Of a stretch of 64,000 bases of DNA, positions 3,253 through 33,141 are shown one piece after another. Location: positions 169,136,001 to 169,200,000 of the forward strand of contig OX597815.1 of NCBI GenBank assembly GCA_951406725.2, given 5' to 3'. The DNA is from Octopus vulgaris. Lineage: Eukaryota. The notes beneath the pieces are model-generated. The model searched no databases. It saw only the letters and a list, made by a program, of their open reading frames with translations, and was not told the DNA's origin. A program made the position numbers and the translations under genes. Every line of letters starts with the position of its first letter. Position 1 is the stretch's first letter.

Positions 3253-3729
3253 ACTAGTAATTAATATATATTATATTCAAAGAAACTTAGAGGTTGTAAA
3301 TCCAACCAACTAAGGGATAATATCTATCCAATATACTGCTTGTAGAATACCCAATTATTAATACACAAGTGTTTTTTATTGCATTGCAATTACATTACCG
3401 AGTGTACTAAATGGATGAAGGTAAATAGATATTTTACCATTATATATATATATAGAGTAATCAAAGCCGAAAGTGTCATAGAGCCACACACCTTCACTAG
3501 TAATTAATATATATTATATTCAAAGAAACTTAGAGGTTGTAAATCCAACCAACTAAGGGATAATATCTATCCAATATACTGCTTGTAGAATACCCAATTA
3601 TTAATACACAAGTGTTTTTTATTGCATTGCAATTACATTACCGAGTGTACTAAATGGATGAAGGTAAATAGATATTTTACCATTATATATATATATAGAG
3701 TAATCAAAGCCGAAAGTGTCATAGAGCCA
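3239..3729. repeat. Near-perfect 243-bp tandem duplication
   Basis: 3239-3481 is repeated at 3482-3724 with AGCCA microhomology at the junctions. Confidence 0.95.
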
Positions 3730-4794: not shown

Positions 4795-6438
4795 TATATG
4801 TGTGTATAAATATGCACATACATAGGGTAAAAGGTAACGACCCTTTTTGGTCATGAATGACCATGGGATTGCACCTAGTTCCTCTCTTGGACACAAGTCC
4901 AAGCAAGGTTGTTTGTGGAAGACCAGTTTTTACCCATGCATACCAGCCTCCCCTCTCCATGCCACCGTTGTTATCCAAGGGAAAGGCACCAGTGACAATG
5001 CAATTCATTCCTACAGGTGACTGAACAGGAGTAATGTGAAATAAAGTGTCTTGTTCAAGAACACAACACACAGCCAGGTCCAGGAATCAAACTCAGTACC
5101 CCATTATTGTGAGACTGATGCTCTTAACCACTGAGCCATATACACAGCAAAATCACGATAATCTGTTGAACAGCTGTTAATTGACCGTATTGTACCAAAG
5201 ATGAGAACTTCGAACTTGTGTAGATTTCAAAGCTTTTATGGATCCAAACACCCAGTGCACCTTGGAATACTTACACTTATTGTTTGCAGCTACACTTCCA
5301 AGGAGACCAGCAAATATCAATTGATGTCCTAAGTTTCAAAACCATGGCCACTTTGCTGTTGCAGTTGCTTAGACCCAGAATTATCATATGGAGTATCTTT
5401 TATCTTTTACTTGTTTCAGTCATTATCTTGAAGGGTTTAGGCGAATTAATTGCCAACAGTACTTATTCTTTTGACGAACCACTAAGTTACAAGAATGCAA
5501 ACAAACCAATAACGGTTGTCAAAAGACAGTGGGGGACAAAGACACACACACCAGGCTTCTTTGTTTCCATCTACTAACTGCACTCACAGGGCTTTAGACG
5601 ACCTGGGCTATAGAAAACACTTGCCTAAGGTGCCACACAGTGGGACTGAATCCAAGACCACTTGGTTGGAAAGCAAGCTTCTTACCATACAACCACAACT
5701 GCATCTAAAACTTCGTTATCAAATGTGTACTTTCTAAGACTAGGTGTGATTTGACTGCTATTTCTTGCCGCTCGAGCGACAGCGTTGCGTCGGTGTTGTT
5801 GGTTCGTTGAAAAAGCGAAAGGGGGTTATTGTTACTTAGCAACAGGTTTAGCCTGATGAAGAAGGCCTATGATTAAAGGCTTCTAATCACGATCTGTTTT
5901 GTTTTTAGTTGTATATTTCGTTTAACGTGTAATTTAAAGATATGGCAAGTATCTGTAAGAGATCGAATGATCGTTTAAAGAAAGGTTACCTCATTGGCTC
6001 GAAGTAGGGGTAGGCATTAAATAAGTAAATAAATGATAGAGTGTGTGTGTGGGGTGGGTGGGGGTATCCAGATCTGCGTGAACTAGAAGCAGAACTCTTC
6101 CAGCAAGACATGGGCCCAAAAATACAGAGATACTGTACGGTACAGCTTCTGCAACTCATCAAAACGTGATGGATGAAACGAGGCACGATGTTGTCAGTTT
6201 GAATTTAGATATACGTTATAAGATTATCGTCATCCAGAGAGCTAATTCAGTTTTCTGTTCTACTAAATATTTTATATGGTAAACCATAATAATCAACGTG
6301 TCAATCAAGCCCAATGCATTTCTGCTTCTCTCTCGCCGATAGCGATGAATCAAATTTTTCTTTAATGATGCCGGTGTCTTTTACGTAACACTCTGTTTTC
6401 ATAATGGTTGCTGCGTTAGCTGTACAGTTCCCTCCAAG

Positions 6439-6498
6439 TGACGTCACGACTGCAAAGGAGGTGGAGAACAAATCACGTCAGGAAAGGAAGTAGCCAAT
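6439..6498 (+). promoter_or_regulatory. Promoter motif cluster of the PGC-1 family gene: full CRE, CRE/ATF variant, ETS core, CCAAT
   Basis: TGACGTCA 6439-6446, TCACGTCA 6473-6480, AGGAAGT 6485-6491 and CCAAT 6494-6498 lie within 60 bp. They are followed by a GA-rich tract (~6518-6621) and TATAAG 6643-6648, upstream of the first splice donor. Confidence 0.7.
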
Positions 6499-6967
6499 TA
6501 AAGAGCGTGCTAATGCGAAAGAGAGAGAGGCAACCGGAGACAGCGAAAGAGACAGAGAAGGAAAAAGAGAAAGAGTGAGCGAGGGAGAGAGAGAGAGCAA
6601 GAGAGAAAGAGAGCGAGAAAGATGTATGGAGGGAAGGGAGGCTATAAGGACAATGACTGCGATGAGACGAAGAGGGAGAAATGAATAAGAAGGAGTGGTT
6701 GTGACTGTAAGAGCGGGAAGTCGATATAGAAATCTATTTGGTTATTATTTTTTTCTGTCGGTATTTGCAATATGCTTAGTCGGTGCGTTACCGTTTTTAT
6801 GTTGCTGTTATTATTTTAGTGGATGCATCGTTCGGCACGTATTTTGCTAATCTCAACGCAGGATTTGGATATTCATTTATATTATAATCGACGATTTTGA
6901 TATTTTAAAGTTAGCCTGACATGTTCTATAGTTGGATGTACCCCATCTGTAACCAGTATTGTCCAAT

Positions 6968-6972
6968 ATGAA
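6968..6972 (+). CDS. PPRC1: PGC-1/PRC/Spargel-like coactivator, coding part of exon 1 (ATG AA)
   Basis: Canonical donor GTAAGT at 6973. ATG 6968 is the only ATG here that stays in frame through all downstream exons; an in-frame TGA lies just upstream. Confidence 0.6.
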
Positions 6973-9204
6973 GTAAGTTATCGATTTATCATTTATGTTA
7001 TAATTATATTTTTATTGTACAGTTTTGAAAAGTATATTTGAAATTTACAGGTTATAAAAAAAAATCGCCCATCGTTCTTATTAGGAAGCATTTTTGTGAC
7101 GTGAAAGGCTTCCTTCAATAAGCCACGTGTTAAACCTCACCAAAAGCGCTGTCTATTCTTTTCATTAAAATAAAAGAAAGTAATTTTTTTCATGTATTGG
7201 TATAAACTGAAATAATGCCTATAGTGGTTTCGAAAGGAGTCTTTAGCAGATTTATGGATTTTTTTTTCCCACATGCACACGTGTGTATATGTGTGATTCA
7301 TCTACGTCTTTGATACGCACATGTATGCAGTGGCCACAAAACGGGGATCTGTTTTCGTTTCGTAAACTATTGAATTTCGATCCCCCTCTTTATGATTTCT
7401 CTCGATACTTCTCCATTTTTATTTAAGCTTAAATTTTTATAGAATTAAATTATTTATATTCATTCCAGTTTGTTTATTGGCACTATCAATTTTAAATGCA
7501 CTCTCACTCTGCAACTAGAACTAGTTAAAACGAGCTCTTAGATCTTGCGCAACTTGATAACTGTTTTTCAACGTCACAATAGAAGGGAGGAGAGTTGGCA
7601 TTTTATTAATCCACATGGTATTTCTCTTTAACGACTTCTAAATTAGGCTTCTCTGCTTTTATACTTTCATTAAATTCTTAATGATCTCGAAATCAACTGA
7701 AGTTTCTTTGGGAAATATATAATAGAATTTACAATTATAAATATGACACGTCTGAAATATATAAAGAGCCTTAATCGTTATTTTGAAGTGATCTTATCCC
7801 ATCATTCCGTTGCTTTACTATTTAAATAAAGTATTTTAACTCAATTTTTCTGATGAGGTTGCTCTATGTGGTGTATTAAACAATTTAAAATGTTTTTTTT
7901 AAAATACCATTAAATGAAATTGCTTTGAATTCTCTCATTTAATCCTAGTAAACTTTTTAGTCGCAATTCACGTGGGTTTATTTTCGCTAGTCCGATATGA
8001 TCTGACTAAACATGGTATGTGATATCCACTCCTATGGCTTTTAGAAATAAATCTATTGTAATTTTTTTTTTCTTTTTCGTTAGTAAATATTTTTAAAGAC
8101 TTCAATCTTTCGATATACTTATTGAACTCCTTTATATAGTAATATTTTTCTTTTCCCCTTCTTTTCGGCAACCCGTTTCTCACTGATGGGCTTGCTTTAC
8201 CGGCAACATGAATCCCTAGATATATCATATTTCTTCCGTGTTTGCAGTCCTTAAAAAGATCGTCAAACGTTTTGAGAAATGAGACTTATAATCAATGTTA
8301 CAAAGATGAGAAATCTCATTTTCCTTCCTTGAGTTGTTTTTTCCCTCCTCAATTAAATGTTTTCGCTACTAAAACCTATATTCATTGTCCTTACGTGGAC
8401 TAAAATCATAAGTTGATAAAGCTTACGACCAAATCGCAGTCCTAAATATATATTGATTTATAATGATGTAGAATTTACATTTAACACATTTTATTGCCTA
8501 GGTATTCGCATTTAAAAAAAACAACTGTATTTAGGTCTATAAATTGTTGAAGACTTGATAAGAAATGTTTATATGAACTTTTCCATATGTACCTTAATCT
8601 TTTGAATTGAACTATGTTTTAAACAATTGAACTTTCAACTTTAAGACGATAAAATAAATAGCTCAATTACTCTCAATGTTAGAGATTATAAAGAATTATA
8701 GACCTGTGTTGATAGCCAATGATCATATCATAGATTTTTTCTGAAATAACTTTTCAGTTAAAAAAAAACATATTTTGGGGATTTTGTAATTTTATAATTC
8801 TTTTCTAGATTTTCTTTAATCCACCCCTATGATAAACAGCACTTGAATGATTTTTATTAATTGGGCAAAAGAGATCCTTTGTTTTTTAAAAAGGCTCGGT
8901 CCTACAACTTCAATTATTTCAGGTGTTTTGAGCTCTCGTCCTGCATAAAAATCTGAGACGTTCTAATTCACTGGGATAGTCTATTGTCCTTGCAATACTT
9001 CAATAGCCATGTGAAATGCTGAGTTGTAGTCAAAGTTCTTTCTGGAGAAAAATCAAATTAACTTAAGACGAAATTTCAAGGCAATTTTCCGCTCCAATTT
9101 TTAATTACTAACATTAAAAATAAAATTATAAATATTTATTATTGATTACATTTCATATTGTATTCTTTTTTATTGTGGCTGATTTTGTTTCTTTTGTTTT
9201 TCAG

Positions 9205-9230
9205 AAATAACAGCAGTAATCTTCATGACA
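9205..9230 (+). CDS. PPRC1: PGC-1-like exon 2 (26-nt microexon, KNNSSNLHD)
   Basis: Long polypyrimidine tract ending TTTCAG, donor GTAAGT; phase 2 to 1 fits both neighbouring exons. Confidence 0.65.
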
Positions 9231-14587: not shown

Positions 14588-14656
14588 GTGTTGTCATTGA
14601 AGCTACATCCTATAACAAACTTCTCTCTCAATTTGAAGAAATTGTAGCATCTTCGG
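14588..14656 (+). CDS. PPRC1: PGC-1-like exon 3 (SVVIEATSYNKLLSQFEEIVASS)
   Basis: TTTCCAG acceptor, GTAAGG donor, phase 1/1. LLSQFEE resembles the LLEQFE-type motif I recall from invertebrate PRC/Spargel-like proteins. Confidence 0.75.
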
Positions 14657-16938: not shown

Positions 16939-16966
16939 ATTTTTCACCAGTGCAAGATTTAACAAG
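16939..16966 (+). CDS. PPRC1: PGC-1-like exon 4 (28-nt microexon, DFSPVQDLT)
   Basis: Pyrimidine tract plus CTAG acceptor, GTTAGT donor; required to convert phase 1 to phase 2 between exons 3 and 5. Confidence 0.65.
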
Positions 16967-18728
16967 GTTAGTATATTACTAAACGATTCAAATGTTTATT
17001 TTTCTATATTTATATAGCTTGGCTAGGTCTGGCAGCATCTTCCATATTTGTTCATCTTGTGGCATGATTTTTACAGCTAGAAGCCTTTTCTGTCAACTAG
17101 CTGACTTACAGTGTGTCTACAATAGGATTAAGGAGTCTACTCTGTTCTGTCAGTTTCTATTCAGTGCTACTGCTCTCCTAGATAAGTTGCCTTCACTGTG
17201 GTTTGCAGAACCTGTCCTATGTGTGATTTATCAATGAGTTTGTTTGGAATTACCAGCTTACTGGGCAGATTGCATTCACTGTGGCTGAAAGGCTATGTCT
17301 TCATGATGTAAGGAAGGAATTTGGTTATCATTGAGAGGAGTGGCATGTAGAACAGTGATTAAGAAATTATTTGCATGGAGACTGAAGTTTCTTGTCATCC
17401 TATATTAGATTTTTCAGTTTGCAAATGTGGGAGGGGAGGTATTCCAGTCACCTGAAAAGTCTTGGCTTACTGTCTGATTTATTCTTATCTGTTCAGCTGA
17501 ATTTTTCTCGTACTCATGTTAAGAATATAGTGAATTCCCTGGGTTCCTAACCAATAAACTATTTAATGTGTAATTTATCATGTCCACATTTCCATGATTG
17601 CATGGGTTGGATGGAGTTTATTGTGGCAGATATCCTATGGCCAGATGCCCTTCCTGGTGCCAACCCTTGTTTCCAAGTAGGGTTATATTTGCCAATAGCC
17701 AAACATGCTTTTGCACAATATTGGAACTGGCATTCATTTACAACAATTGTGATTTCAAGACACATGTGCATGCATACTCATACAATGTTTCTTTCAGTTT
17801 CTATCTATCATAAACCACTCAAGGAGCTGCGATCAGCTTGGGGTGTAGTAGGTGACACTTGTTCAAAAGTGTCACGAAGTAGGACTGAACCTGAAACCAA
17901 GTTGTCAGGAATCAAACTCTTTAACCAAGATAACTAGTATTGATCACAAAGACCTTACTAAATTGGATTTGATAAATTTCTTTTATTGCATCATAGGAAG
18001 AGGAAGAATTGGATGTGAATGTGAGAACTATGTTCTGTTTAGGCTTTTGAAAGAGATAGGTATAACAGGGGGGGTTAAGACAATACAAATGGAATATGTT
18101 GGCTTATATAATCAGCTAGCTTGCAAAACATTGTAGAGTGGAGTAAGGAGTCATGCTCCATATTTTGCAGAGGTACATATATTTAGGACTGCATTATCCA
18201 ATGTGTCCATTCAATTTTTAAGATGGTTAGCTGTGATTTAACCTTTTCTTGACCATATCTATAATGAAGTACATAACCTACGTGTTTCAAATAATGTGAA
18301 AGTAATCAGGAATTTGGAGGAATTTATTAAAACTTAAGTCGTTATTAGGCAAATGTTTGGAAAATAACAAAACTGAAATTGGGATAATTTTTATTTTAAA
18401 CAAGAAGTTTTCTTTCATAAAACTAAAATTGGCATCAAAAGGATTAATGGGTATCTGGGTGTTATTTCTCGCAAGTTGAGTGACTATATGAGTGTTTCCT
18501 CATTGGCTTAAAGATGCAGATGCAGAATACTTAAGTGGTTGCAGTATGTTAGTAAGTGTAGAATTGTCAATCAGGTTATGTAATGAAGATAAGCTTCTAG
18601 ATTTGTGTGCAGTTCTTCATTGAAAAATGAAACTTGTTGCTGAGAGTCTCTAATTCTTTGGAGTTTCAGCCCTTTAGCATTTAAACTGGTTATATCAGGC
18701 CCAAATATTCTACCAGTTTTAAGTTCAA

Positions 18729-18950
18729 CCCTTTCGTTACTGTATTTATTTTGAGATGCTCTGTGTTTTTTTCAATTACGTTAAATATAACAAAGAATTT
18801 AGCAAAATAACTTAGTTACCATTTAGCTACTGTTAGAAACATAAACTGTGACTAAAGTTTGGTGGATGATTTTAATTCAAAACTTATAAAAACAAGACAT
18901 TTGTACTCAGAGAGCCAGAGCTGGTTTCAGCTAGGTTGGTAACGAAAGGG
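18729..18950. mobile_element. Second piggyBac-like MITE nested in the first family
   Basis: Perfect 12-bp TIR CCCTTTCGTTAC / GTAACGAAAGGG with TCAA on both sides; a related copy lies at ~26402-26579. Confidence 0.8.
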
Positions 18951-19230
18951 TCAAATCAACCAGATCTGGCTTCTCACACCTATACGATGTCCTTGTCAAA
19001 ATATACAATCATGATTGAAATCTAGAACTAGTGAGATAATGCATAATTAAATCAAACCAATTTGAATAAATAAACATGCTTGGTAGATTAGTCTGAATGC
19101 TAAAGGATTTAATATTTTTTGTGGTCTCATAAAGGAATTGAATGTTTGATGCAATCTTACTTGTGTGATATGTATAACTATGACAAGTGAACAGCAATAC
19201 TAAACTTTTTTTTCTTTTTCTTATCTACAG

Positions 19231-19523
19231 CGCAAAGACCTCAAGTATTTCATTAATACCTACAAGTTTCCAAAATATTACAACATACAAAACTGATGGC
19301 GTTTCCCATCAAGCTCCAACTATTACTGTATCTGCGACTAGAAACGAAAATTCACTTCCAAGAAAATTATCACTAGTGTCTAATGGTATTGTAAAAAAAT
19401 TAGTTAAAAATAGACATGGCATTTCTGTGTCTTCATTACTCAGAGATCCTAGAGTCAGTAAAATGAAGCTTGTAACTGATGTGCAGTGCAATGGTACCAA
19501 TGCTGTTAATGGCATATCGAATC
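19231..19523 (+). CDS. PPRC1: PGC-1-like exon 5 (SAKTSSISLIP...NGISN)
   Basis: CTACAG acceptor, GTAAGT donor; lies in the frame of ORF 19187..19813; phase 2 to 1. Confidence 0.8.
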
Positions 19524-20442
19524 GTAAGTATTATTTCTTTGTATTCAGAGTATATCTTAAAATTGTAGGACATAAATGCAATGTAAATAATTTGGCGTGT
19601 TATTTTTACTATAAATTATTTTCTACAAGTATCTCTATATATAAATGGCAAAATGTGTGTCTGTCCTTTATAGAAATCCACAATTTTTCAGTTAGAGGGC
19701 TTGCACTTTCTATGGTCATTCAAAACCGTCCAAGGGTGGTCGTGCACATCTTTACATTTCCTCAGTCACTCCGCAAAGCCATTAAAAAATCAATAGAAGT
19801 GACTTTTTTGTGAATTTTCTATCCAAAACCCAATTGAATGCCAGCTAGCTGTATGTGATTGGTGGGAGATTTGGACAGTACCCACGTGTATGTGCACATG
19901 CACGCAGCTGTATATGCATGCACTAGCACTATGACCTGGCGTTGCTAGTGTAAAATACTGTGTTATATGTTTTGGGGGTTGATAACATTTTTCACTGGTT
20001 TTAATTAAAATATTTTTACATATTCAGTGTCCATAACTATTTGTTCAAGAGCTACAAAATGATGGGGGTAAGTTATTCACTTATGGAAATTTGGTCCCAA
20101 AACTGGCAGCAATAAACTCTGCTGAATGCACCCAAGAGACTTGTGGTGTTGTTAAACTGGGTAGCAGATTAAGACTACCACTCAAGAGGAGAAACATTAT
20201 CTCTGACAGGCTTCCCTGCAGTTTCCACCTACCAAATATCACTTACAAAGTTTTGGCCCACCTAAGGTTATGGTAGGAGATACTTGCCTAAGGTACCATG
20301 CATTGGGATTAAATCCCAAACCAGACAACTGAAATACAAATTTATTAACCATACATATTTGTAAAATATTATATATCAAATTCAAAGTATAATATCTAGC
20401 ACAGTAAAAGAACAGTGTTAAATATTTGCTTATAAAAAGGTT

Positions 20443-20745
20443 CAGGCATGGCTGTGTGGTAAGAAGCTTGCTTCCCAACCATGTAGTTCTGGGTTCAGTC
20501 CCACTGCATGGTGTCTTCTACAGCTTTGGGCTAACCAAAGCCTTGTGAATAGACTTTGGTAGATGGAAACTGAAAAAATGCCCGTGTGTGTATGTTTGTC
20601 CCCATAACTTGGCAGATTGGCAAAACAGACTGATAGAATAAGTACTAGGTTTACAAAGAATAAGTCCTGGGTTGATTTCTTTGACTAAAATCCTTTAAGG
20701 TGGTGCTCCAGCATGGCTACAGTCAAATGACTGAACTGTGTAAAA
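20443..20745 (+). mobile_element. tRNA-derived SINE family with internal (TG)n (representative copy)
   Basis: GGCTGTGTGGTAAGAAGCTTGCTTCCCAACC...GGGTTCAGTCCCACTGC head. Other copies at ~1-300, 5400-5703, 15225-15606, 27188-27600, 39860-40250, 51137-51436 and 63325-63725. Confidence 0.8.
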
Positions 20746-21084
20746 AAAAAAAGTAAATCATGTGGATTTAACCCTTTGGTGTTCAGATTATGCTTATTCA
20801 TTCTTGTTTTGAATTAATCTTGCAATTTCAAGGGGTTGTGATTATTCAATTCGAGAATGACATTGTGGAGTAGGTGTGATAGGTTAAAACCAATCAGTTT
20901 GAATGTAAAACAGAATATTTGGGCCAGATATAGTCAGTTTAAATACTAAAGGGTTGTGTGATTTTAAAACTACAAAATAAGAAAATGTCCACAAAAAAAA
21001 GTAAAGTTAATGCTGAGAAATGAATGTTATTAATATATCTTAATTAGCATTTTTTTTATATAGATATATATGTATATATTTCAG

Positions 21085-21511
21085 AAAACCAAGTTAATGT
21101 GGCATCAGTTACTGATGTTGAGAATTCAGATCCACTCCAGTCAAATGTGTTAAAGCCTGTCAGTTCTAAATTGGCTGGAAACCAAACAATTAAACCAAAT
21201 AGTGAAACTAACCAAACTGGAATCTCTGCAGTAAATGATACAAAAGACTCTATACCACCAATTGTTCTACCAGAATTATCTATTACAAGGCCAGTTAAAA
21301 AAAGTGCTTCAACAGATGAATTTCCAGATTTACTGAAACCTCAAAATTTAACGAGATATGTCGAATTAAGTTCATTAAAAAGTCAAGATAATAATAATAA
21401 TAATAATAACTCTTCTAAGAAGCAAACTATCCAGTATAGGCCCTATTATAGTCATTTAAGGGATCATGACTACACACTTAATTGTCCTAGATTTATTCCT
21501 AAAGAAAAGAG

Positions 21512-21544
<33 letters not shown>

Positions 21545-22921
21545 ATCAACAAAAAGGTCATTTATAATTCCAAAGAAAAAGAAAAAACTTAGTGATGACC
21601 AATGCTTAAATAATTCTGTGAGCAATAATTCAAACAAAGACTCAGATAACCCTAATACGCAGGAATATTTTTCTAATGATCCACAAACTAATAGCTTAAA
21701 TCTTGAAAATGAAAATTCTAGTTCTCCAAATATACAGACAGCTAATTCAACATCTTCACCCCTACCTGTTAGTTCTGATGATACAAAGGACGTGCTTCAT
21801 GAAGAAAAACGAGAAACAGCTGAAGTCTTTGAATCTGTTGAAAAACAGAATATATCGTCTTGTGGATTAAGTGCCCTACATGATTATGTTAGCAGTGAAA
21901 ATCCATTTGATTGTCGAAATGTCGACAATCATGATTTTCGTACTTGTGATATGTGTAAGGATTTCTTCCCGAAACCTAAATCTGGTGAGAAATGCAATGA
22001 TGATGTTTTCCCTGATGTTGTGCCCTGTCAGATGTGTTGTCACTTAAGTGAAGACAATTTGACTGCAAACTATGTAAAACATTGCAATGTGAATAGTCCT
22101 CTCGGTCACTTGAATCCCTGTGGTTTGTTGTCTTGTCCTACAGATGAAGCAATCAATGCTTGTATTTTTGATTATCCTAATGATAAAGAATTGCGGAAGA
22201 TTTCTTCTACAGACGTTGAAGGGATCTTAGACTCTGACATGTTAGATTTTACTAGTTTAAAAACAATTGATCAGAACCATTTTAATCTCAAAAATTCTCT
22301 GGATTTGTTGATACCACCTTCTTTAAGACACAATCAAAAAACTTATGAAAATTTCTGTAACTTTCCTAATGAAATAACAGTAAATGAAAACAATGATAAT
22401 CTAAAAGAAAGTATTTTAAATGAAAATGATTTTTTATTTATTTCTGAACCAGTTAAAACATCTGTAGATAGTTCTTCAACAATAGAAATTAGTGATCAAG
22501 CAGTTAATGAGAATACATCTAATAATGAAAACTCCCCCATGGAGGAGGATCCTGATGAAAAAGATATGAGTATAGACGAAGGATCAGATGATGATGAAGT
22601 TCTGTTAAATAAAGTGCCAACATATTTAAGTGGGCTATCAACAGAAGCAATTAACAACAAATCTAAGATTAGTTATCAATCTTATATTGATAATGGGATT
22701 GATACATCTGACTTTATCAAAGATCCTTCTCCTGAACATGTGACTGAGCTATGTAAGATCCCAGCATACCATCAATCTTTCAGCAATAGTACAAAGTATG
22801 ATATAAATTCCTCTTCTCTGGTTCGTAAATATCCTTGGAGTGAAAGAAGAAAAAGTGCGATACGTCATCATCAGCAGTTTGACTCCGATTGTGAAACTTC
22901 AAAAAGTTGTCTTTCATCGTC
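21085..22921 (+). CDS. PPRC1: PGC-1-like exon 6 (1837-nt low-complexity exon with DHDY HCF-binding motif and basic NLS-like run)
   Basis: Covers the 608-codon ORF; TTTCAG acceptor, GTAAGT donor at 22922. DHDY at 21462-21473, PKKKKK, poly-N/poly-T and acidic tracts. Confidence 0.92.
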
Positions 22922-24834
22922 GTAAGTATTGATTTATTTTCAGTGTACAGTCTTGTGTACAGTCTTATTGAAATTATGATCATTTGGTCTTCATCACTGA
23001 GATACTGAAAGTAAAGCCAACATTTCTATTTAAATAAATTACTAGGTACCTCTACTGAATTGGCTTTTGTTTATACCTGTTCACCATGAACTCAATATCT
23101 AATCATTACTGGCTTTATTGATCATCGCTATTGCAGTATTTTTTTTCCTTTTTTCATGTATATATAGCTAAAATTATAGTTTTTATAAAAGAGGCTGTGC
23201 TGAAAAGTTCTTGGTTATGGGTTAAAGAAAATACAGGAGGATTAGTTAATTATGATTTTATTCAACATATTCCACTCTCAGATTTATTCATTTATTGCAG
23301 CAGTCCTTCAGTTTTTCTAAGCCCTGTAACAGGACTCAGAAGGTTGGGCCTCCAACCAGGCCTTTTGTTAAACCCTTAAAGCCAGAAGCTTGTCAGCACC
23401 CCTTCGTATACACTCCACCGGATCACTTTTGCCCAGTGGTCATTCAAAATCATTTCTTTCTCAATTTCTTAAATTTCATTCTGTCCATTCTCTTGCATGG
23501 ATGGTTACAAAGATCCAAGCAGCTAACCTAATTTCTTTTCAAACAATGATCTACATTTAATTCCCTCAAGATTTATTTCATAATGTATTAAAACTCATCA
23601 TAAACTGATTTAAAAATAATAGTTTTTCATTTTACTTCCCCCCCCCCCCCCCACATATAAAAGGATTTTTGTTCTGTGTTCGGCTCTTCTAAACATAAAA
23701 GCCTTTTACCGAATTTCATTGGAATGCATTAAATAATATATTTTTATTTGAATTATTAAAGATCTACTACTGCAGTGAGCTGGCAGAATCATTTAGCCTG
23801 CTGGACAAAATACTTTTTTAGGCATTTCTAACAGTAATATAGCCTCTATGGTTACTCTGCCAGAAATAAAAGCTAATTCTCCTTCAAATTACACTATCAT
23901 CATTTAACATCTGCTTTCCATGCTGGCATGGGTTGGACAGTTTGACAGAAGCTGGCCAGCCAGAGAACTGTACCAGGCTCCAATTGTCTGTTTTGACATG
24001 GTTTCTGTGACTTGACCCCCCCCCCATGCCAACCATTTAACAGAGTGTAGTGGGTGCTTTTTATGTGGCACCAGCACTTTTTTCTTTAACAAAAAAAGGG
24101 TGGACACGTTCAACAGTATAGTCGTGGTTGGAATGTTTTAAATCCTGGATATATTCAATCTATTTATGATTCCTCACAATAATATGAAATGTTGCGATCA
24201 TATCTTTGGTTTTCCTGCATAAGACAAATGATACACTAATCATTTTAATTATTCTCTCTTAATTAGGCACATTCTTAACATGGTTAAACTATTTATTGCA
24301 TACTAAACTTTATATTTATGAGTCAAATGCATTATTTGCATGCTTTAAAGTAAAAACAAGTAACACTAGTAAGCAAGAAATGCTTATATCTCTACAGCTG
24401 TTTCAGTGGGTCGCTTTTTACTTGTAGTCTTTAAGGATGATTAACAGTACCTTTACTACACATCTTTTCAGTTTCCCAATTTTCTATGTGCAAACAGCTC
24501 TAGAATTATTAGCATATAGTTCACCATCTTCTGGCCTTTTATTGACATCTGTTATTGTTTAATCATGAAGTTTCAGTAGCTGTCTCAACTTCATGGTTCA
24601 AATCCAACTACAAGCTCTGCATTGTATTTTGGAGCTGGGTACATTATTTGTTTCACTTGAAACCATACATGGGCAACTGTTTTTCAAGTAACAGGCCATC
24701 CTATTAAAAAGCATTCAAGGTAATTTTCCATTTAGGCATGCCATTCAGTAAGTCCTGCAAGCCACAAGTTGCCCGTGGTTTAACTTCATGTATTTTATGT
24801 TGAAATGGTTGGCACTAGTTTTTCAGAAGTTTCT

Positions 24835-25056
24835 TTAACCCTGCAGTATTCAGGTTACTGTCAAATGTTGCACTTATTTCTTCACATTGTTTAGAATTAC
24901 TCCTGCATTATCTTGCAGCATCAACATTTTAATGATGTAATTATTTGTTGAATAACATTGTAGAGTAGGTGTGGGAGACTAGATCTGGCTGGTTTGAACA
25001 TAAAATAAGTAGAATATTTGGGCCTGATATAGCTGGTTTAAATGCTAAAGGGCTAA
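24835..25056 (+). mobile_element. piggyBac-like ~220-bp MITE (TTAA-CCC...GGG ends); abundant family
   Basis: Ends ttaaCCCT... / ...AATGCTAAAGGG. Related copies near 562-757, 18670-19106, 20768-20955, 25057-25784, 28572-28760, 42647-42845, 53198-53402 and 57018-57241. Confidence 0.75.
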
Positions 25057-25094
25057 CCATTAGCATTTAAACAGGTCATATCCAGACAATATTC

Positions 25095-25601
25095 GGATGT
25101 TTACCTTTTGATCTACAGGTTTAAAAAATGATTTTTGGTAACTAAACACTTTCAAACTTTGGACACTGGTAGAATGTATCATATAAAACACTTTTTACTC
25201 TTAGCATTTTTGAGAAAAACTTATTTACGAAGTTATTTCACGTTAAAGTTTTCTTATTTCGGTAATTTCAACCAATCAATGTATATTCAGCTGAATAAAA
25301 TTACTGCTGTTGTTTGTCAACAAGAACTTCCGGCAGTGTATATTTCGTTTGTCACTGTTATTTATGACAACCCTAACCCCTTAAAACCAGTACAAACGCG
25401 CGAACAATGTCATAAATAAGTGACAAACGAAATATACACAGCCGATAGTTGTTGTTGACAAACAACGGCAGTAATACGTTTTTCTCAAAAATGCTAAGAG
25501 TAAAAGATGTTTTATATGACACATTCTACCAGTGTCCAGTTTGAAAGTGTTTAGTTACAAAAAATTATTTTTTAAACCTGTAGGTCAAAAGGTAAAGATC
25601 C
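25095..25601. mobile_element. Foldback MITE with ~125-bp TIRs, an internal second inverted pair and an 8-bp TSD
   Basis: GGATGTTTACCTTTTGA... / ...TCAAAAGGTAAAGATCC; CAATATTC duplicated at 25087-25094 and 25602-25609. Confidence 0.9.
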
Positions 25602-26019
25602 CAATATTCTACCTGTTTTGTGTTCAAACTGGCCAGAACTAGCCTGTCACCCCTATCCTACAATGCCATTCTAAAAATAATCGTTCATCAAAATTTCAAA
25701 GTTATGAGATAATTCATGAATAATTAAAAATAATGTGAATAAAATAAGAATTATATTAGATGGAGTAATCTGAATGCTAAAGAATTATAAATGAAAGTGT
25801 CTCAATTCAATATAGCAATAGCATATAGGTTTGAGTTGTGGTTTCACATTATAATGTTACATGGTTTTACTGACTCAAGATATTCTGATATTCTTTGTTC
25901 TGTCTTGTTGCAGATGAATTATATATTCCTCTGCTAACACTGTCATCGCCTCATCATTTCGTTTTGTCTTCTGTCTATTGTTGCTATCACTGATCGAACC
26001 TCTTTTTCTCAATTTTCAG

Positions 26020-26280
26020 CAGTTCACCATCACCTTCTGATTCTCCAACTGAAGAATTTCCAAGCTGGTCACAGTCAAGTTCAAGGTCAACGTCTCCCAG
26101 TAGTGATTCTAGAAGTGGTCAGTTTTCCCCATACAGTGATTACACATCATCACGGGATCGATCCCCATCACCATTCTCGCAGCATCGAAGTACATATTCA
26201 TTACAGAAAGTTTCAAGACAAAATCGAAATTATTCTCGTATTCGTTCTCCTTACAGATATTCTAATCATCACAGATCTAG
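26020..26280 (+). CDS. PPRC1: PGC-1-like exon 7 (Ser/Arg-rich RS region)
   Basis: Reads SSSPSPSD...SSRSTSPSSDSRS...RDRSPSP...RIRSPYRYSNHHRSR; NAGNAG acceptor, GTATGT donor; phase 2/2. Confidence 0.88.
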
Positions 26281-26882
26281 GTATGTACTATCATTGCAAT
26301 CATTTTAGTCCTCTTCTGCAATCGACAATGGAAATGGTGCTTCTTTTATGAACATTTTATAAAGGTGCCATTTCTCTTGTCAGACTATATTTTCTTTTCT
26401 ATTAACCCTTTAGATACCAACCCACTGAAACTGCCCTTGGTCCTATGATACAAACTTCCTATTTTAAAGTGATTTAAATTAAAATTTCATGTTAATTTAT
26501 ATTCCAAACCCCAGCTGAGTAATGTCAGTTATATGAAATAATTTTTTTAATTTTATAAATATGGTAACGAAAAGGTTAATTAATTCTCTATAAGTAATTA
26601 TTTGATAAGATTTAATATTACCCCTACCTCCTCTCTCTCTCTCTTAATCATATAATGTATTTTTATAAAAAGAAATAATCAATCTTTTCACATAATTTAA
26701 TTACACTCTGTTTACATTACATATTTGTAAAAGTATTTTAGTTTGGTTTTTCAGTGAAAAAGATTCGGAAACACTGTACTAGATTAAAGTTTTTCCTGTA
26801 TATAATATAGATATATAATTTTCACAGGTGATTTATCTCTTCCTTTTTGTGATGTATTTTATACTTTTTTTTTCCATGACAG

Positions 26883-26931
26883 ACGGCGAAGCTCTCTGAC
26901 AAATAAGTACCATGACAAAGACATACATCAG
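26883..26931 (+). CDS. PPRC1: PGC-1-like exon 8 (RRSSLTNKYHDKDIHQ)
   Basis: T-rich tract plus ACAG, donor GTAATA; phase 2 to 0 links the RS region to the RRM. Confidence 0.8.
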
Positions 26932-28193
26932 GTAATAACAGAATTCCTTTCAGTTATTTAGAATTTATCAAGTATTTAAAATTATAATTGTTGCTTAGCT
27001 TGTTTCAAGATTTTTCTGTTTAAAATTGTTCTATGTGCATTGAGCTTAGATAGTGGAATTTCATGAAGCTGTTTCTGGTAAAGTTGAATTTATTGAGTGG
27101 GAGGATAAAAACAAACAGTCCTAGGTGTAATGATAATGGTGATGCGTTGTTCAGTTTATAAGTTTATATGTAGCTTAAATAGTGCGTACATGGCTGTGTG
27201 GCTAAGAAGCTTGCTTCCTTTCCAACTATGTGGTTCAGTCCCACTGCACAGCACTTTGGCTGAGTGTCTTCTACTGTAGCCCCAGACTGACCAAACTTTT
27301 GAGAGAATTTGGTAGATACATGTTGAAAGAAATCCATCACATATGATGTGTGTGTGTGTATAAATGTGTCTACTCTTGTCTTGATATCATGTGGTGATTG
27401 TAAATGTGCTTAATTGTCATATAAGCAGTGTTGTTTGTTACTAGTCTTCCATGAAAAAACCTGTCTGGCCAGGGGAATATTACTTTGTTGAGAAACAGGT
27501 GAGGGTTAGTGGCAATAGGGCATCCAGGTGTAGAAAACTTGCCTCAACAAATTCCTTCTCATCCATGCAAGCATAGAAAAGTGGATGTTAGAACAATGAA
27601 TGATATAAACATTACTTTGTTTGCTTAAGTTTTTATCTCAAAGAAAATGGGTTGTATCACTTTCATGACTTGCATTAAACTATATATTTTTAATTTTTAT
27701 TTTATTTATTTTTATTAGCATAGATAAATTGTGGGCAAATTGTGGCCCACGAGATTTTCAGAATAGCATGCCTAACAAAAAATTGCCTTAGACGCCCAGT
27801 ACACTTATGTAAAGTGGTTGGTGTTACAAAAGGTATCATCCATCCATAGAAACCATGCCAAAACAGATGACTGGGGCCTGGTGCAGCTCTCCAGCTTACC
27901 CACTCTGGTCAAACCATCTAACCCATGGTAGCATGGGAAACATGTTAAATGTGGATTATGGGCCATGTCTGTCATGTGGCCTACGTCTCAGTGAGGTTGT
28001 CCGTGTGTGGCATGGGTGAAATGAATCTAGTTCAACTATGAAGTAGAAATGGAACTTTTATTGGTTGGCAAACTGGAGTGTATTACATAACATTTCCAGT
28101 TAGTCCAAATAATTTCCAAACCCACAGGATGTTGTTTTTTGTTGACATGTTATTATTGGTCTCCATCAAATAATTTTTAATTCATTGTTGCAG

Positions 28194-28315
28194 GATGAGC
28201 GCCGTATTGTCTATGTTGGCAAATTACCTCTTAATTACACCTCTAATCAACTAAAGGAGTTATTTAGTAAATGGGGCCCGGTAGAAAAAGTCAGCTTACA
28301 TTTCAGAGAGCATCA
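28194..28315 (+). CDS. PPRC1: PGC-1-like exon 9, RRM N-half (DERRIVYVGKLP...VEKVSLHFREH)
   Basis: ERRIVYVG is the characteristic RNP2 segment of the PGC-1/PRC RRM; canonical splice sites. Confidence 0.95.
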
Positions 28316-29394
28316 GTAAGTACATTTTTAGTTCTATTCTGTGCTTGTTTCTCATTAAGATAGCATGTAGTAAATAGTTCTAAAAATTTGACTGTTGCAT
28401 AAATTGCAGAGCCATTTCTTGAACTGTATAATGGTTAACTGGTTCTTAACAAGTCATTTGTTAATGAAAGCTGTCTTTTTTTTTCTTTTTTTTCTTTCTT
28501 TCTTTCTTTCTCAAATCCAGTTAGGTAGGCAGTAGTCATGAAAGCATTATAATGTTATTGAAAAGGAAATTTAAACCTTTAACATTCAGATTAATCTGTC
28601 CAATGTAATGCTTATTTATTAACATTGTTTTGAATTAATCCTTGTAGCCTCAAGATTTCAGTGATAGGATTGGTGTGAAAGGCCTGATCTGGCCAGTTTG
28701 AACATAAAAAGGGTTGGATATTTTGGCTGACATGGCTGGTTTAAATTTTAGAGAGTTAAACTTGATTATCGTTAGTGGTAGTTCTCCATTCTCATTGTTT
28801 TCTATGGGGTTTATTTTACAGCTGGATGTGTTTACAAGGGCATCCAGCCATAGAAACCGTGCTAAATCTGACATTGGAATTTTACGTGTCTCTGGTGCTT
28901 GACAGATTCTGTCAGGGAAAAGGATGTTAAATGATGACACCCTTTCTGTTGCCAATCCTTTTGGTAGCTTATACACACGTGTGTGTAAGAATTCCAGGTG
29001 GTGACATTTTTCAATTTTATAGGGAGAAAGTATATATATCATAACAGTCTGAAAACCCATTCTGGTTGACTTGAAAATAATTTTAATATTTTGATTATAA
29101 AATGCGATTATATGGAGTTTATAAAAAGAAATTATCAAAAAGGTATTCATAAATACAAAATTCAATTTAGTTTTAAAATATAAGTGAAATTAAAAAATTA
29201 AAATTTTATGTAAAAGCTCTTTGCAATTAAGTCTAAATGTACATATATAATTTATATTGTATGTGTATTTATAAGGGTATATGTGCATACATTGTGTGTT
29301 AATGTGTATATATATATATACATACACACACACACACATGCCCCATTATAATTAAAGTGTTACATTAAATTGTATGTCTTGTTTCTTTTTACAG

Positions 29395-29453
29395 GGATAA
29401 TTATGGATTTGTTACATTTTATCACCAAAGTGATGCCTACCTTAGTATGGATG
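29395..29453 (+). CDS. PPRC1: PGC-1-like exon 10, RNP1 (DNYGFVTFYHQSDAYLSMD)
   Basis: DNYGFVT matches the PGC-1-family RNP1; ACAG acceptor and GTATGT donor. Confidence 0.95.
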
Positions 29454-30576
29454 GTATGTATTAAATTTTAACCCTTTCATTACAATATTTCTGTCAAAGT
29501 ACACCACTTTTTTCAGTTGGTTTTGAAAAATAATACAAAAGTTTTAATTCAGATTACTTTAAACAGATGGCTTGATTCATAGATCTAGGTCTAGGAGTAG
29601 TCTGACTGGTTGTTATCAAGAGTTAAATATGATTCCAATATCCTCATCGGTTAACATCTGCCTTCCATGCTGGCATGGGCTGGGCGGTTTGGCAGGAGCC
29701 TGCATCAGACTTCTGTGTCTGTTTTGGTACAGTTTTTACAATTGGATGTCCTTCATAACACCAGCCACCCAGCAGGTTGGACTGTTATTAAAATCATGTA
29801 AGGCAGCAAGCTGGCTGAATTGTTAGCAAACTGGACAGACTGCTTACCAGCATTTCATCTGTCTGCATGTTTTGAGTTCAAATTCTGTTGCAGTAGGCTT
29901 TGCCTTTCATCCTTTCAGGCTCAATAAAATAAATAACAGTTAAGCACTGGGTTGATGTAATCAACTTTTTCCTCCTCTGAAATTGGAGGCCTTGTGCCAA
30001 AATTTGAAACCAATATATATTCACAGTACTAGTTCCACTATAAAGCCATAATTTTCTAGAACAGTGATGTGTGCGTGTGTGTGTGTATATGTAAACATGG
30101 AAATTACACACTAAAACAAAGTAATGTGGAACATCTTCAGTGTTTCACTGAGATTATCCTTGACGGGTCAATGTTTTGAGAAAATTTGCCATTGGTGACA
30201 TTTCTGATGTAGAGATGCTATCTTTGGCTCCCCCTGCCTGCCGCCTCTTTATAATTCATAAACAAGAGCATCATTCTAGGCTTTTACAATGTACCAGTTC
30301 CTGGTTTACTGCATTTTTAATGCTGAGAGTGGCATGGTAGAATCCCAGTAAATTTGTCCAATGAACATTGGCTTTTCACTGAGGTTTACATCCTTCACAC
30401 TATTGCAAAAGATTAAATACACACACACACAGCTTTGTTGCCATATGGTCTCAAGCTCTGTCTCATTGCATGAAACCATGGGCAAGAGTCTTTTAGTGTA
30501 GCCCCAAAAATGAAAGATGGGGAAACACGCAAGTCAAGACAGGGAGACACATACATATACCCAGAACTACGCTAAT

Positions 30577-30763
30577 AGCTTAAGAGTGAAATTTAGGATT
30601 TTTTGGTTTTCTGTAAATTGATTTTGATAAAACTTTCCCCAGCTGGTTTGAACACTATGGCAACACCATTGTTATGTTTCCATAGTGTGCAAACCAGCTG
30701 GGAAAAGTTTTATGAAAATTGATTCACAGAAAACTGAGAAATTTTAAATTTTACTCTTAAGCT
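30577..30763. mobile_element. Palindromic (hairpin) MITE, ~187 bp
   Basis: Arms of ~85 bp, AGCTTAAGAGT...CCAGCTGGTTTGAACACTATGG / CCATAGTGTGCAAACCAGCTGG...ACTCTTAAGCT, around a short loop. Confidence 0.8.
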
Positions 30764-31303
30764 TGGTTGTATGTGTGTATGTATAATATATATCTATATA
30801 GAACACACTTGCACAAGATGCCATGCAGTGGGACTGAACTTGAAACCATGTAGTTAGAGAGCAGACTTCTTACTATCTGTATTCATACACACACACACAC
30901 CCTGTTTGTGTGTGTACATGCTCATGTGATGAAAAATAGTGGACAAATTGTCCTGTAACTCTGCGTGAGTGGAATAGAAGATCTCTTGCTTGAAGAAACG
31001 GGTAAGGGTTAATGACAAAGGTATTCGGCTGTTAAACAATTCTCCAATTAATGCTAGCATGGGGGAATGGACATCAAACAAACTAAAACACACAAATGAC
31101 AAGATTCTGTGCAGTTTCTTTCGTACCAAATTCCACTCATAGAACCATTAATCAGCCTGTTTATGATGTGCAGTAGGCTGTGAATCAAATTTCTCAATTA
31201 AATGTGCATCTGCTTCTATATTGCTTTATCTTGTTCTTTTATTCAATTGTTATCCATTAAGAATTATATTTACTAATTACTTTTTTTTTATTTATTTTTT
31301 TAG

Positions 31304-31387
31304 CAACTAGTAAAATAAAAGATTTTCCATTTGATGTTTGTTTTGGTGGAAGGAGAACATTTTGTCAGGAGTCTTATGCTGATCTTG
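31304..31387 (+). CDS. PPRC1: PGC-1-like exon 11 (PFDVCFGGRRTFCQESYADL)
   Basis: FDxCFGGRRxFCxxxYADLD is diagnostic of PPRC1/PPARGC1/Spargel. Confidence 0.96.
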
Positions 31388-31644
31388 GTAAATATCTTAT
31401 TATTTTTATTATTTTCACCGGTGTTGCTTCCGTTTTTTATTCCTATAATAGGGATATTAGAATTTAAAATCAGACAATGTGAAATAGAGCAATAATATGA
31501 AACTTGGGTGTTCTTTTGGTCAACATAATATCTTTAAACGAGCAACTTTTTTTTATTATCAGGAATTATAAACCTGCTTACTGTGTACAAAATGGTAATG
31601 TGTGGTAGTATTTTTTAGTGAAATGTGAATAGTAAAAAAAAATG

Positions 31645-32140
31645 AGGACCTAGAAGAATGTGTGTGCAAGAGAAAAGACTGCTGCTGTGGCCATGTAAAG
31701 CATATGAACAAAGACGGTTCCATCAAGAGGTGCCGATCTCTAATTGTAGAGGAAACATGTGGAAGGGGTAGAGCAAGGAAGTTGTGGGATGAAGTGGTGA
31801 GAAAAGATCTACAGATGTTGGGATTCAGAGGTGGGATGGCAGGGAACCAAGCTTCCTGGCAGTTTGCTGTGCTTGAAAAGACATGTCAAACTAAGTAAAG
31901 TTTGGTTGTCCTTGCATACAGGTTCATCCCTTGCAACCTCTCCAGCTGAGCATCCCTAATCTCATGGCCTCGTCAGTGCTGATGCCATGTAAAAACACCT
32001 AGTACATTCTGTAAAGTGATTGGCGTTAGGAAGGGCATCCAGCCATAGAAACCATGCCAGAAACAGCCTTTCAGCTGGTTGGCTCCTGTCAAACCATCCA
32101 ACCCATGACTGCATGGAAAATGGACATTAAATGATGATAT
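31645..32140 (+). mobile_element. RTE-like LINE 3' fragment
   Basis: GHVKHM...GRGRARKLWDEVVRKDL C-terminus followed by the (GAT)n-tailed 3' UTR repeat. Confidence 0.75.
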
Positions 32141-33037
32141 TGCAGAAGCTGATTCTTGTTGCTGTTGTTGACGGCTTTATGTTTAGGCTGAGGTATAAGT
32201 TAAATTTGGAGCTTAAATGTAGTCTTTAAGCTATAGTTTTATTTCCCTTTGCAATCCCATAAGCCTGATTGGCATAATAAACTGTCTACTGTTCACTTGT
32301 ATTTTATATCATATTTTTGATATTTACCAAGCACTTTTCAGTACTGCAAACAATCATTAGTGAAATAAAACAAAAAAAAAAAAAAATGCATACCGACTTG
32401 ATGTGTGTCATGTCACAGGCCATGTGCATATTGAACATTTGTGAATTTGGTTATAAAATCTACATCGCTCTGAATCTCTTGTTTGAATTTTGATAAATCT
32501 TTTACTGTTCAACATGAAGCCCATTTAACATGTAGTTACTGTAATCCCTTGCCATATAGCGGTTTGTTATTTAAGCTTACAGTGATTCCTCCGTGGTGTT
32601 GTTTTGCAGTTATGATAAAAATAAATATATAAAAAAAAATATATGCAGTACTGTTTCTACTTTGCAGATTTTCACCTATCACGGGGTTTTGAAATGTAAT
32701 ACCTGTGATAGTCAAGGGATTATTGTACTCAGATATTCACATTTCAAATGTCAATTTTTTTTGAGACCCTGTATGTGTGTATAAAAAGTATTGGTTAGCT
32801 CAGAGCTATGGTAAAAGACACTTGCCTAAGCTGTTCACAATGGTTATTAACATTAATTTAATTGCATCTTTGACATTAAGCAGGTCATAGAAATGGCAAA
32901 ATATTTGTGTCAGGTTAAGGAAATTCTAGTTCTTCCATGATGTAATTGCTAATATCTATTGTGTTTAAGTGAAATTTTTTAAACATGCAATCAATATTAG
33001 ACATTTTTTTATTTATTTTATTTATTTATTTTTTCAG

Positions 33038-33141
33038 ACAGTTTGGTGGAAGATGAAGAGGAGTTTGGAACAGTAATCCAAACATCTAATGTGTCGTTTG
33101 AGCAACTTTTAAAAGATTGGAAGCGTGACAGGAAACATTGA
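33038..33141 (+). CDS. PPRC1: PGC-1-like terminal coding exon 12 (DSLVEDEEEF...SFEQLLKDWKRDRKH*)
   Basis: TTTCAG acceptor; FEQLLK corresponds to the FDSLLK tail of vertebrate PGC-1; TGA at 33139-33141. Confidence 0.93.

What the first reader, a model, noticed from the sequence alone, without database searches (positions are those of the whole stretch)
6772..6972. Three tandem uORFs, the last overlapping the predicted PGC-1 start codon (ATGA)
Seen: uORFs at 6772-6819 (15 aa), 6823-6900 (25 aa) and 6921-6971 (16 aa). The third ends in TGA 6969-6971, overlapping ATG 6968-6970. Known: translation of vertebrate PPARGC1A and Drosophila spargel is repressed by a uORF. Inference: the same, or a more elaborate, translational brake exists in this lophotrochozoan orthologue, perhaps with termination-reinitiation coupling.
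Basis: partly seen in the sequence, partly recalled or inferred. Interest (0 to 1): 0.7.

Follow-up and report, generated by a model that had tools for sequence, protein, structure and literature searches.

The report
Ordinary uORFs before octopus PGC-1 gene
Three short reading frames do sit just ahead of the start of an octopus gene of the PGC-1 family, which governs mitochondrial output, and they probably dampen its translation, but such frames are the rule in octopus gene leaders and nothing here shows a special coupling mechanism.

Summary
The three uORFs are exactly where stated (15, 25 and 16 codons), and the third ends in a TGA overlapping ATG 6968. The gene is an octopus PGC-1/spargel-family gene. 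Twelve window exons reproduce all 972 residues of the O. sinensis protein, and the Argonauta orthologue shares 10 of its first 11 residues, so ATG 6968 is a credible start. A CRE/ETS/CCAAT cluster at 6439-6498 suggests transcription starts upstream of the uORFs (inferred; not measured).

The arrangement is not enriched: 5 uATGs against 5.2 in shuffles, with an ATGA overlap in 33% of shuffles and at 176 of 794 ATGA sites in the window. In O. bimaculoides, 78% of genes with an annotated 5' UTR carry uAUGs. The TURBS core UGGGA and stable structure are absent, so termination-reinitiation coupling is unlikely. Most likely uORF1 and uORF3 simply repress translation, and the protein is made by leaky scanning plus some reinitiation after uORF1. 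That parallels vertebrate and fly PGC-1 but is not shown to be homologous. Conservation across cephalopods could not be tested.

The parts
6439..6446 (.). Perfect palindromic CRE (TGACGTCA), the only one in the 64 kb window; candidate CREB/ATF site of the promoter
   Evidence: 1 found, 0.42 expected anywhere in the window; the point is its position 529 nt before the start codon
6476..6498 (+). Half-CRE (6476), ETS-type GGAAGT (6486) and CCAAT box (6494); candidate proximal promoter
   Evidence: motif scan; CpG observed/expected mostly 0.74-1.38 over 5500-8750 against 0.39 for the window
6520..6622 (+). GA-rich low-complexity repeat; likely around or just after the transcription start (inferred)
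6643..6648 (+). TATA-like word (TATAAG); would put an alternative start near 6670 (inferred, weak)
6622..6684 (+).
6626..6688 (+). Extra short ORF (20 aa) with internal ATGs at 6653 and 6662
6681..6704 (+). Extra short ORF (7 aa); best start context of the region (85th percentile)
6772..6819 (+). uORF1, 15 aa; A at -3, Octopus Kozak score at the 68th percentile; weak internal ATG at 6799
6823..6900 (+). uORF2, 25 aa; same frame as uORF1; weak context (7th percentile)
6921..6971 (+). uORF3, 16 aa, out of frame and overlapping; G at -3 (71st percentile); weak internal ATG at 6936; stop TGA 6969-6971
6950..6952 (+). TAA in the main frame, 18 nt before the start; excludes an N-terminal extension within this exon
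6968..6972 (+). Main start codon and coding part of exon 1 (5 nt); A at -3 (81st percentile)
6973..6978 (+). 5' splice donor GTAAGT of intron 1; scores at the 99th percentile of window GT sites although left out of training
9205..9230 (+). Coding exon 2 (26 nt); holds the first downstream ATG (9225), out of frame and in a weak context
14588..14656 (+). Coding exon 3, carrying the conserved IEA...LL.QFE motif
16939..33141 (+). Coding exons 4-12 (16939-16966, 19231-19523, 21085-22921, 26020-26280, 26883-26931, 28194-28315, 29395-29453, 31304-31387, 33038-33141) with DHDY, RS region, RRM and FEQLL; next in-frame ATG is Met121 at 19463

Best explanation
This is the 5' leader of the octopus PGC-1/spargel-family gene, transcribed from a CpG-rich CRE/ETS/CCAAT promoter, and it carries an ordinary load of uAUGs. 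Shown: the ORF anatomy, the gene model and the start contexts. Inferred: transcription starts at about 6520-6700, so scanning ribosomes meet these AUGs first. Many initiate at uORF1 or uORF3, whose contexts are nearly as good as that of the main AUG; uORF2 is mostly skipped. Ribosomes that finish uORF1 or uORF2 have 148 or 67 nt to regain initiator tRNA and may reinitiate at uORF3 or the main AUG. Ribosomes on uORF3 terminate with the main AUG only 2 nt from their P-site and no initiator tRNA, so they are lost to the main frame. PGC-1 is therefore made by leaky scanning plus some reinitiation after uORF1, and the leader acts as a constitutive damper. It works like the vertebrate and fly PGC-1 uORFs, but the individual uORFs probably arose independently, and the ATGA overlap is incidental.
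For: ORF anatomy and contexts. Gene model reproducing 972 of 972 residues. Argonauta N-terminus 10 of 11 identical. Promoter motifs and CpG plateau upstream of 6772. uATG number and overlap at chance level. O. bimaculoides: 13,547 of about 17,250 genes with an annotated 5' UTR have uAUGs, observed/expected 0.857, and 28% of start codons are followed by A (PMC7889888 supplements). Review passages: overlapping out-of-frame uORFs act as repressors bypassed by leaky scanning (PMC10275272), and even a 1-nt overlap likely precludes ordinary reinitiation (PMC5972666 section 16). A toy scanning model with assumed probabilities puts most of the effect on uORF1 and uORF3 in 6 of 6 settings.
Against: No transcript, CAGE or ribosome data were available, so the start site is inferred. 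The NCBI record is 'isoform X1', so other isoforms exist that were not seen. The full three-ORF-plus-overlap pattern is uncommon: 9 of 794 window ATGA sites and 6.8% of shuffles. The high uAUG load in O. bimaculoides may partly reflect over-long annotated UTRs (my inference). The lack of uATG depletion in a real leader could itself mean selection to keep them.
Confidence: 0.6

Rival explanations
1. The uORFs are not in the main mRNA, or are not used. Transcription starts downstream of them, part of the leader is spliced out, or another first exon dominates, so they are neutral sequence.
For: ATG density equals background. Weak acceptor-like sites at 6820 and 6915 and donor-like sites at 6706-6760 could define a leader intron that removes uORF1. 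'Isoform X1' implies alternative isoforms. Related proteins often have 20-170 more residues before the IEA...LL.QFE motif, so an unseen upstream exon is conceivable.
Against: The promoter motif cluster lies 270-330 nt upstream of uORF1. The candidate leader acceptors score 3.8 and 6.1 against 8.7-17.7 for the 11 real acceptors, though those were the training set. Of 5 strong donors found in 5400-9180, only the one at 6972 has an upstream in-frame ATG. Three relatives also have only 7-20 residues before the motif.
Confidence: 0.18
2. The uORFs are a selected, conserved translational brake, descended from or selectively equivalent to the PPARGC1A/spargel uORF and possibly relieved under stress.
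For: uORF repression is reported for PPARGC1A orthologues from human to fly (Dumesic abstract). uORF1 and uORF3 have purines at -3 and above-median contexts. The gene also has a promoter CRE, as vertebrate PPARGC1A does. Met-Lys is kept in Argonauta, which keeps the overlapping TGA.
Against: No excess over chance in number, length or coverage. A trait carried by about 78% of Octopus genes with an annotated 5' UTR cannot by itself show conservation. uORFs turn over fast in Drosophila (PMC13019311, start of abstract only). Met-Lys conservation is explained by coding constraint.
Confidence: 0.17
3. uORF3 is coupled to the main ORF by termination-reinitiation at the AUGA overlap, so it delivers ribosomes instead of removing them.
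For: AUGA is a recognised stop-start geometry in caliciviruses. A cellular case with a short overlapping uORF, SLAMF1, has been proposed, and TURBS-free coupling exists at CASQ2. Only a 2-nt forward shift would be needed.
Against: No TGGGA on the + strand between 5646 and 7708; only TGGA at 6820, 6866 and 6933. The leader folds less stably than 192 of 200 shuffles. No Rfam match over the leader. Such overlaps are expected in 6-9% of Octopus genes by chance, and a second one occurs at 6681.
Confidence: 0.05

Closest known systems
PPARGC1A / spargel inhibitory uORF (Dumesic et al. 2019 Cell Metab; abstract seen in PMC7288267, full text not held)
   Same: Same gene family; uAUGs in the leader; several uORFs, as reported for fish orthologues; repression is the expected effect.
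   Different: No functional data here. Sequence or positional homology is untested. The octopus protein starts 13 residues before the IEA...LL.QFE motif and has no LxxLL or acidic N-terminal region, so its first exon need not correspond to PPARGC1A exon 1.
Human SLAMF1 long-isoform leader (PMC5972666 section 16)
   Same: Several uORFs, the last short and overlapping the main start codon.
   Different: SLAMF1 has four uORFs, a UGAUG overlap and a TURBS-like word; the octopus leader has AUGA and no UGGGA.
Calicivirus / influenza B TURBS termination-reinitiation (PMC5972666, PMC10275272)
   Same: Stop and start codons overlap (AUGA).
   Different: No UGGGA motif 1, no stable structure, and the upstream ORF has 16 codons instead of being a long ORF.
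Generic out-of-frame overlapping uORFs (oORFs; PMC7889888)
   Same: An out-of-frame uAUG whose stop lies within the main ORF; 7,948 oORFs are counted in O. bimaculoides.
   Different: Minimal overlap (4 nt).
Oyster CgPGC-1alpha (PMC13562396, passages) and Drosophila spargel (PMC4090675, passages)
   Same: RRM, RS region, DHDY and the C-terminal F-x-x-LL motif.
   Different: The octopus protein is longer (972-978 aa against 627 for oyster) and has a very short, non-acidic N-terminus. The searched oyster main text does not mention its UTR.

Membership tests
Invertebrate PGC-1/spargel family (host gene) | C-terminal RRM | tested here: met
   Pfam RRM_1, E=2.4e-10, residues 856-907; ESM Atlas third hit is a PGC-related coactivator cluster at 0.91
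Invertebrate PGC-1/spargel family (host gene) | RS-rich region before the RRM | tested here: met
   13 RS/SR dipeptides in residues 741-860
Invertebrate PGC-1/spargel family (host gene) | DHDY (HCF-1-binding) motif | tested here: met
   Residue 265 in P0001 and 253 in Argonauta; a D/E-H-x-Y match in 15 of 16 relatives
Invertebrate PGC-1/spargel family (host gene) | C-terminal F-x-x-LL motif (FDSLL / FEALL in PMC4090675) | tested here: met
   FEQLL at residue 959
Vertebrate PGC-1alpha proper (PPARGC1A type) | N-terminal acidic activation domain with LXXLL | tested here: not met
   No LxxLL in P0001 or P0003; D+E is 8% and 5% of the first 100 residues. Not filed as PGC-1alpha; treated as a family co-orthologue (inference; no tree built)
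PPARGC1A/spargel-type inhibitory uORF | uAUG lies within the mature 5' UTR | not testable with these tools
   Start site inferred only from promoter motifs
PPARGC1A/spargel-type inhibitory uORF | Mutating the uAUG raises protein output | not testable with these tools
   Needs a reporter or genome editing
PPARGC1A/spargel-type inhibitory uORF | Conserved across orthologues above background | not testable with these tools
   No animal DNA collection available; a protein search for N-terminal fragments found 0 of 166 candidates
Overlapping out-of-frame uORF (oORF) | Out-of-frame uAUG with its stop beyond the first base of the main AUG | tested here: met
   uORF3 6921-6971 against ATG 6968; holds at the DNA level, and in the mRNA only if the leader includes 6921
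TURBS-type termination-reinitiation | Overlapping or adjacent stop and start | tested here: met
   ATGA at 6968-6971
TURBS-type termination-reinitiation | UGGGA motif 1 upstream of the overlap | tested here: not met
   None on the + strand between 5646 and 7708
TURBS-type termination-reinitiation | Stem-loop presenting motif 1 | tested here: not met
   6700-6972 folds worse than shuffles (z=+1.57); no Rfam hit in the leader
TURBS-type termination-reinitiation | Downstream ORF depends on termination at the overlap | not testable with these tools
   Needs reporter mutants

The most novel reading that the evidence does not exclude
Cephalopods keep a selected uORF brake on PGC-1, in which the overlapping uORF3 hands ribosomes to the main AUG by TURBS-independent termination-reinitiation. 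uORF load would then differ between sluggish octopods and fast squids, as it does between bluefin tuna and other fish. The sequence does not exclude this, because no orthologous leader or ribosome data could be examined.
Probability: 0.06. Interest if true: 0.65.

Novelty: new member of a known kind. Interest (0 to 1): 0.22.

Why it matters
If the uORFs repress translation, uORF control of PGC-1 would extend from vertebrates and flies to molluscs. The octopus-versus-squid comparison would then be a natural test of the bluefin-tuna idea that losing the brake goes with high oxidative capacity. But about four in five Octopus genes with an annotated 5' UTR carry uAUGs, so their presence here is weak news. 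Only conservation above background, or true coupling at the overlap, would be surprising. I found no paper on cephalopod PGC-1 uORFs in four searches (listings only, in a library of open-access papers and preprints).

Tried and rejected
(1) Enrichment of uATGs, ORF number or coverage: rejected for the 200- and 268-nt leaders. For leaders starting at 6600 and 6540, five ORFs of at least 15 aa gave P=0.038 and 0.053; these are two of many statistics and are not corrected.

(2) TURBS or other structure: no UGGGA, fold z=+1.57. Rfam over 5500-9500 gave 1 weak intronic hit below its gathering score (SNORD73, E=0.15).

(3) The leader as a decayed or hidden coding N-terminus. Seven leader translations were compared with the N-termini of 16 relatives. 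Five of the 112 comparisons had shuffle P of 0.007 or less. With an empirical null over targets, the five queries retested gave P=0.05-0.55. The two whole-leader translations in the uORF1/2 frame and the uORF3 frame were not retested. Not significant, kept as a weak lead.

(4) A cassette exon joining the uORF1/2 frame to the main frame: 0 of 5 candidates were stop-free.

(5) A leader intron: candidate acceptors are weak; not excluded.

(6) Other cephalopod N-termini: 0 of 166 candidates among shorter proteins. Only O. sinensis, Argonauta and one unnamed exon-6 fragment scored as close relatives.

(7) PDB search gave 1 distant RRM. Pfam on four genomic ORFs gave nothing above cut-off. The sigma-70 scan does not apply to an animal.

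(8) No family tree was built. The bacterial, phage and plasmid DNA collections were not searched, as they do not bear on an animal leader.

Full report
OBSERVATION. The three ORFs are as described: 6772-6819 (15 aa), 6823-6900 (25 aa) and 6921-6971 (16 aa). uORF1 and uORF2 share a frame and are one codon apart. The TGA of uORF3 (6969-6971) overlaps ATG 6968-6970. Two further uATGs lie inside uORF1 (6799) and uORF3 (6936). Three more short ORFs lie upstream (6622-6684, 6626-6688, 6681-6704), and the first ends in another ATGA overlap.

THE GENE. A search with the large exon returned the NCBI protein LOC115228566 isoform X1 of Octopus sinensis (99% identical), an Argonauta hians protein and one unnamed fragment: 3 hits among 8,000 scored candidates. 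Twelve GT-AG exons from 6968 to 33141 give a 978-residue protein containing all 972 residues of that record, plus 6 in simple repeats. The window is therefore from O. sinensis or a very close relative (inference). NCBI calls the protein uncharacterised. It has an RRM, an RS region, DHDY and a C-terminal FEQLL. These are features named for oyster PGC-1 and spargel in passages of PMC13562396 and PMC4090675. The ESM Atlas places its C-terminal part near a PGC-related coactivator cluster (0.91, third hit). It has no LxxLL and no acidic N-terminus, so I file it as an invertebrate PGC-1/spargel-family protein and not as PGC-1alpha. No tree was built.

THE START CODON. ATG 6968 is followed by two bases and a donor that scores at the 99th percentile without being in the training set. 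An in-frame TAA 18 nt upstream closes the frame. The Argonauta protein shares 10 of the first 11 residues across the exon 1-2 junction. Its name copies the O. sinensis locus, so its model may not be independent. Of 152 stored proteins, 20 passed a motif filter meant to keep lophotrochozoan-type relatives; the other 132 were dropped. Among the 20, 18 carry the LL.QFE-type motif. It lies at residue 14 in octopus, at 8-21 in three relatives, at 29-175 in twelve, at 544 in one and at 1 in a fragment. A short N-terminus therefore has parallels, but an unseen upstream exon is not excluded, and other isoforms of the record were not seen. The next in-frame ATG is Met121, after four out-of-frame ATGs.

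WHERE TRANSCRIPTION STARTS. This was not measured. CpG observed/expected rises from 0.1-0.3 to about 1 near 5500 (window 0.39). The only perfect CRE in 64 kb lies at 6439 (0.42 expected anywhere by chance), followed by a half-CRE, an ETS-type site and a CCAAT box at 6476-6498 and a TATA-like word at 6643. The motif names and usual spacings are recalled knowledge. They suggest a start at about 6520-6700, upstream of uORF1, and a leader of 270-450 nt against a median of 242 nt in O. bimaculoides. Vertebrate PPARGC1A is also driven through a CRE (PMC6862278, passages). Candidate acceptors within the leader (6820, 6862, 6915) score 2.4-6.1 against 8.7-17.7 for the 11 real ones, which were the training set.

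IS IT MORE THAN CHANCE? No. In 5,000 dinucleotide shuffles of the 200-nt leader there were 5.17 uATGs on average (5 observed) and 3.8 ORFs (3 observed). Three ORFs of at least 15 aa appeared in 17% of shuffles, an ORF ending on the overlapping TGA in 33%, and both in 6.8%. Across both strands of the window, 176 of 794 ATGA sites have such an ORF, 77 have one of at least 15 aa, and 9 show the whole pattern. From the supplements of PMC7889888 (file 6 row and file 11 part 9; main-text passages also seen): O. bimaculoides has 13,547 genes with uAUGs among about 17,250 with an annotated 5' UTR (78%), about 10 uAUGs per such gene, observed/expected 0.857, 7,948 overlapping uORFs, and A after 28% of start codons. 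From these, 6-9% of Octopus genes should show an ATGA overlap by chance. Over-long UTR annotations may inflate these figures (inference).

MECHANISM. Scored with the O. bimaculoides start-codon matrix, and ranked among the window's + strand ATGs, the main ATG is at the 81st percentile. uORF3 is at the 71st and uORF1 at the 68th, while 6799, 6823 and 6936 are at the 2nd-7th. A toy scanning model with assumed initiation probabilities gave 3.7- to 460-fold total repression, mostly from uORF1 and uORF3, in 6 of 6 settings; it is illustrative only. A ribosome terminating on uORF3 has 6966-6968 in its P-site, 2 nt from the main AUG. Reviews state that out-of-frame overlapping uORFs typically repress and are bypassed by leaky scanning (PMC10275272, passages), and that even a 1-nt overlap likely precludes ordinary reinitiation (PMC5972666, passages and section 16). 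TURBS-type coupling needs a UGGGA motif shown on a stem-loop. There is none on the + strand between 5646 and 7708, the leader folds less stably than 192 of 200 shuffles, and Rfam finds nothing there. TURBS-free coupling exists (CASQ2), so it is unlikely rather than excluded.

ALTERNATIVES TESTED. The leader as a decayed coding N-terminus: best family-wise P was 0.05-0.06 for two of five queries, not significant. A cassette exon linking the uORF1/2 frame to the main frame: 0 of 5 candidates were open.

COMPARISON WITH WHAT IS KNOWN. For Dumesic et al. 2019 I saw only the abstract, as reprinted in PMC7288267, and citing passages in PMC8189582, PMC8036390, PMC6862278 and bioRxiv 2023.01.06.522985. 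The full text and its supplements were not available, so the geometry of the mouse and fly uORFs, and whether any mollusc was examined, are unknown to me. The abstract reports repression from human to fly and several inhibitory uORFs in fish, so multiplicity is not new. Searched passages of PMC13282225 did not mention uORFs (first 300,000 characters held). Four searches found no paper on cephalopod PGC-1 uORFs or cephalopod ribosome profiling (listings only).

VERDICT. The leader probably works like the known PGC-1 uORF brake, but as an ordinary, chance-level set of uORFs whose conservation could not be tested with the collections at hand. Coupling at the overlap is improbable. New member of a known kind; interest 0.22.

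Noticed in passing
window 6439-6498: Compact CRE + half-CRE + ETS-type + CCAAT cluster 470-530 nt before the start codon. It holds the only perfect CRE in 64 kb and echoes the CRE that drives vertebrate PPARGC1A.
   Followed up: partly
window 6968-14656; P0001, P0003: The octopod protein has only 13 residues before the IEA...LL.QFE motif, no LxxLL and a non-acidic first 100 residues, whereas most relatives have a longer acidic N-terminus. This is either loss of the activation region or an unseen upstream exon.
   Followed up: partly
window 6681-6684: A second ATGA stop-start overlap between two short upstream ORFs; it shows how easily the geometry arises.
   Followed up: yes
window 6772-6972: uORF1, uORF2 and a 24-codon ATG-less open stretch (6901-6972, with a CTG at 6916) share one frame broken by only a TAG and a TGA. 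That frame stops in exon 2, and no linking exon was found. The open stretch matches one relative's N-terminus weakly (family-wise P=0.05).
   Followed up: yes
window 8012-8020: A strong donor-like site (score 9.7) in intron 1 directly after an ATG. If used as an alternative first exon it would give only a two-codon ORF.
   Followed up: no
window 9750-14250: A second stretch of high CpG observed/expected (0.7-1.2) in intron 2, with several CACGTG E-boxes (10548, 10891, 12468, 13860; also 7124, 7278, 7969 in intron 1); possible enhancer or internal promoter.
   Followed up: no
window 3243-3727: A near-perfect tandem duplication of about 240 nt upstream of the gene, seen by eye.
   Followed up: no
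window 21085-22921: The large exon differs from the O. sinensis record by 6 extra residues in poly-Asn and poly-Thr repeats. It also holds a Cys/His-rich segment shared with Argonauta, of unknown role.
   Followed up: no
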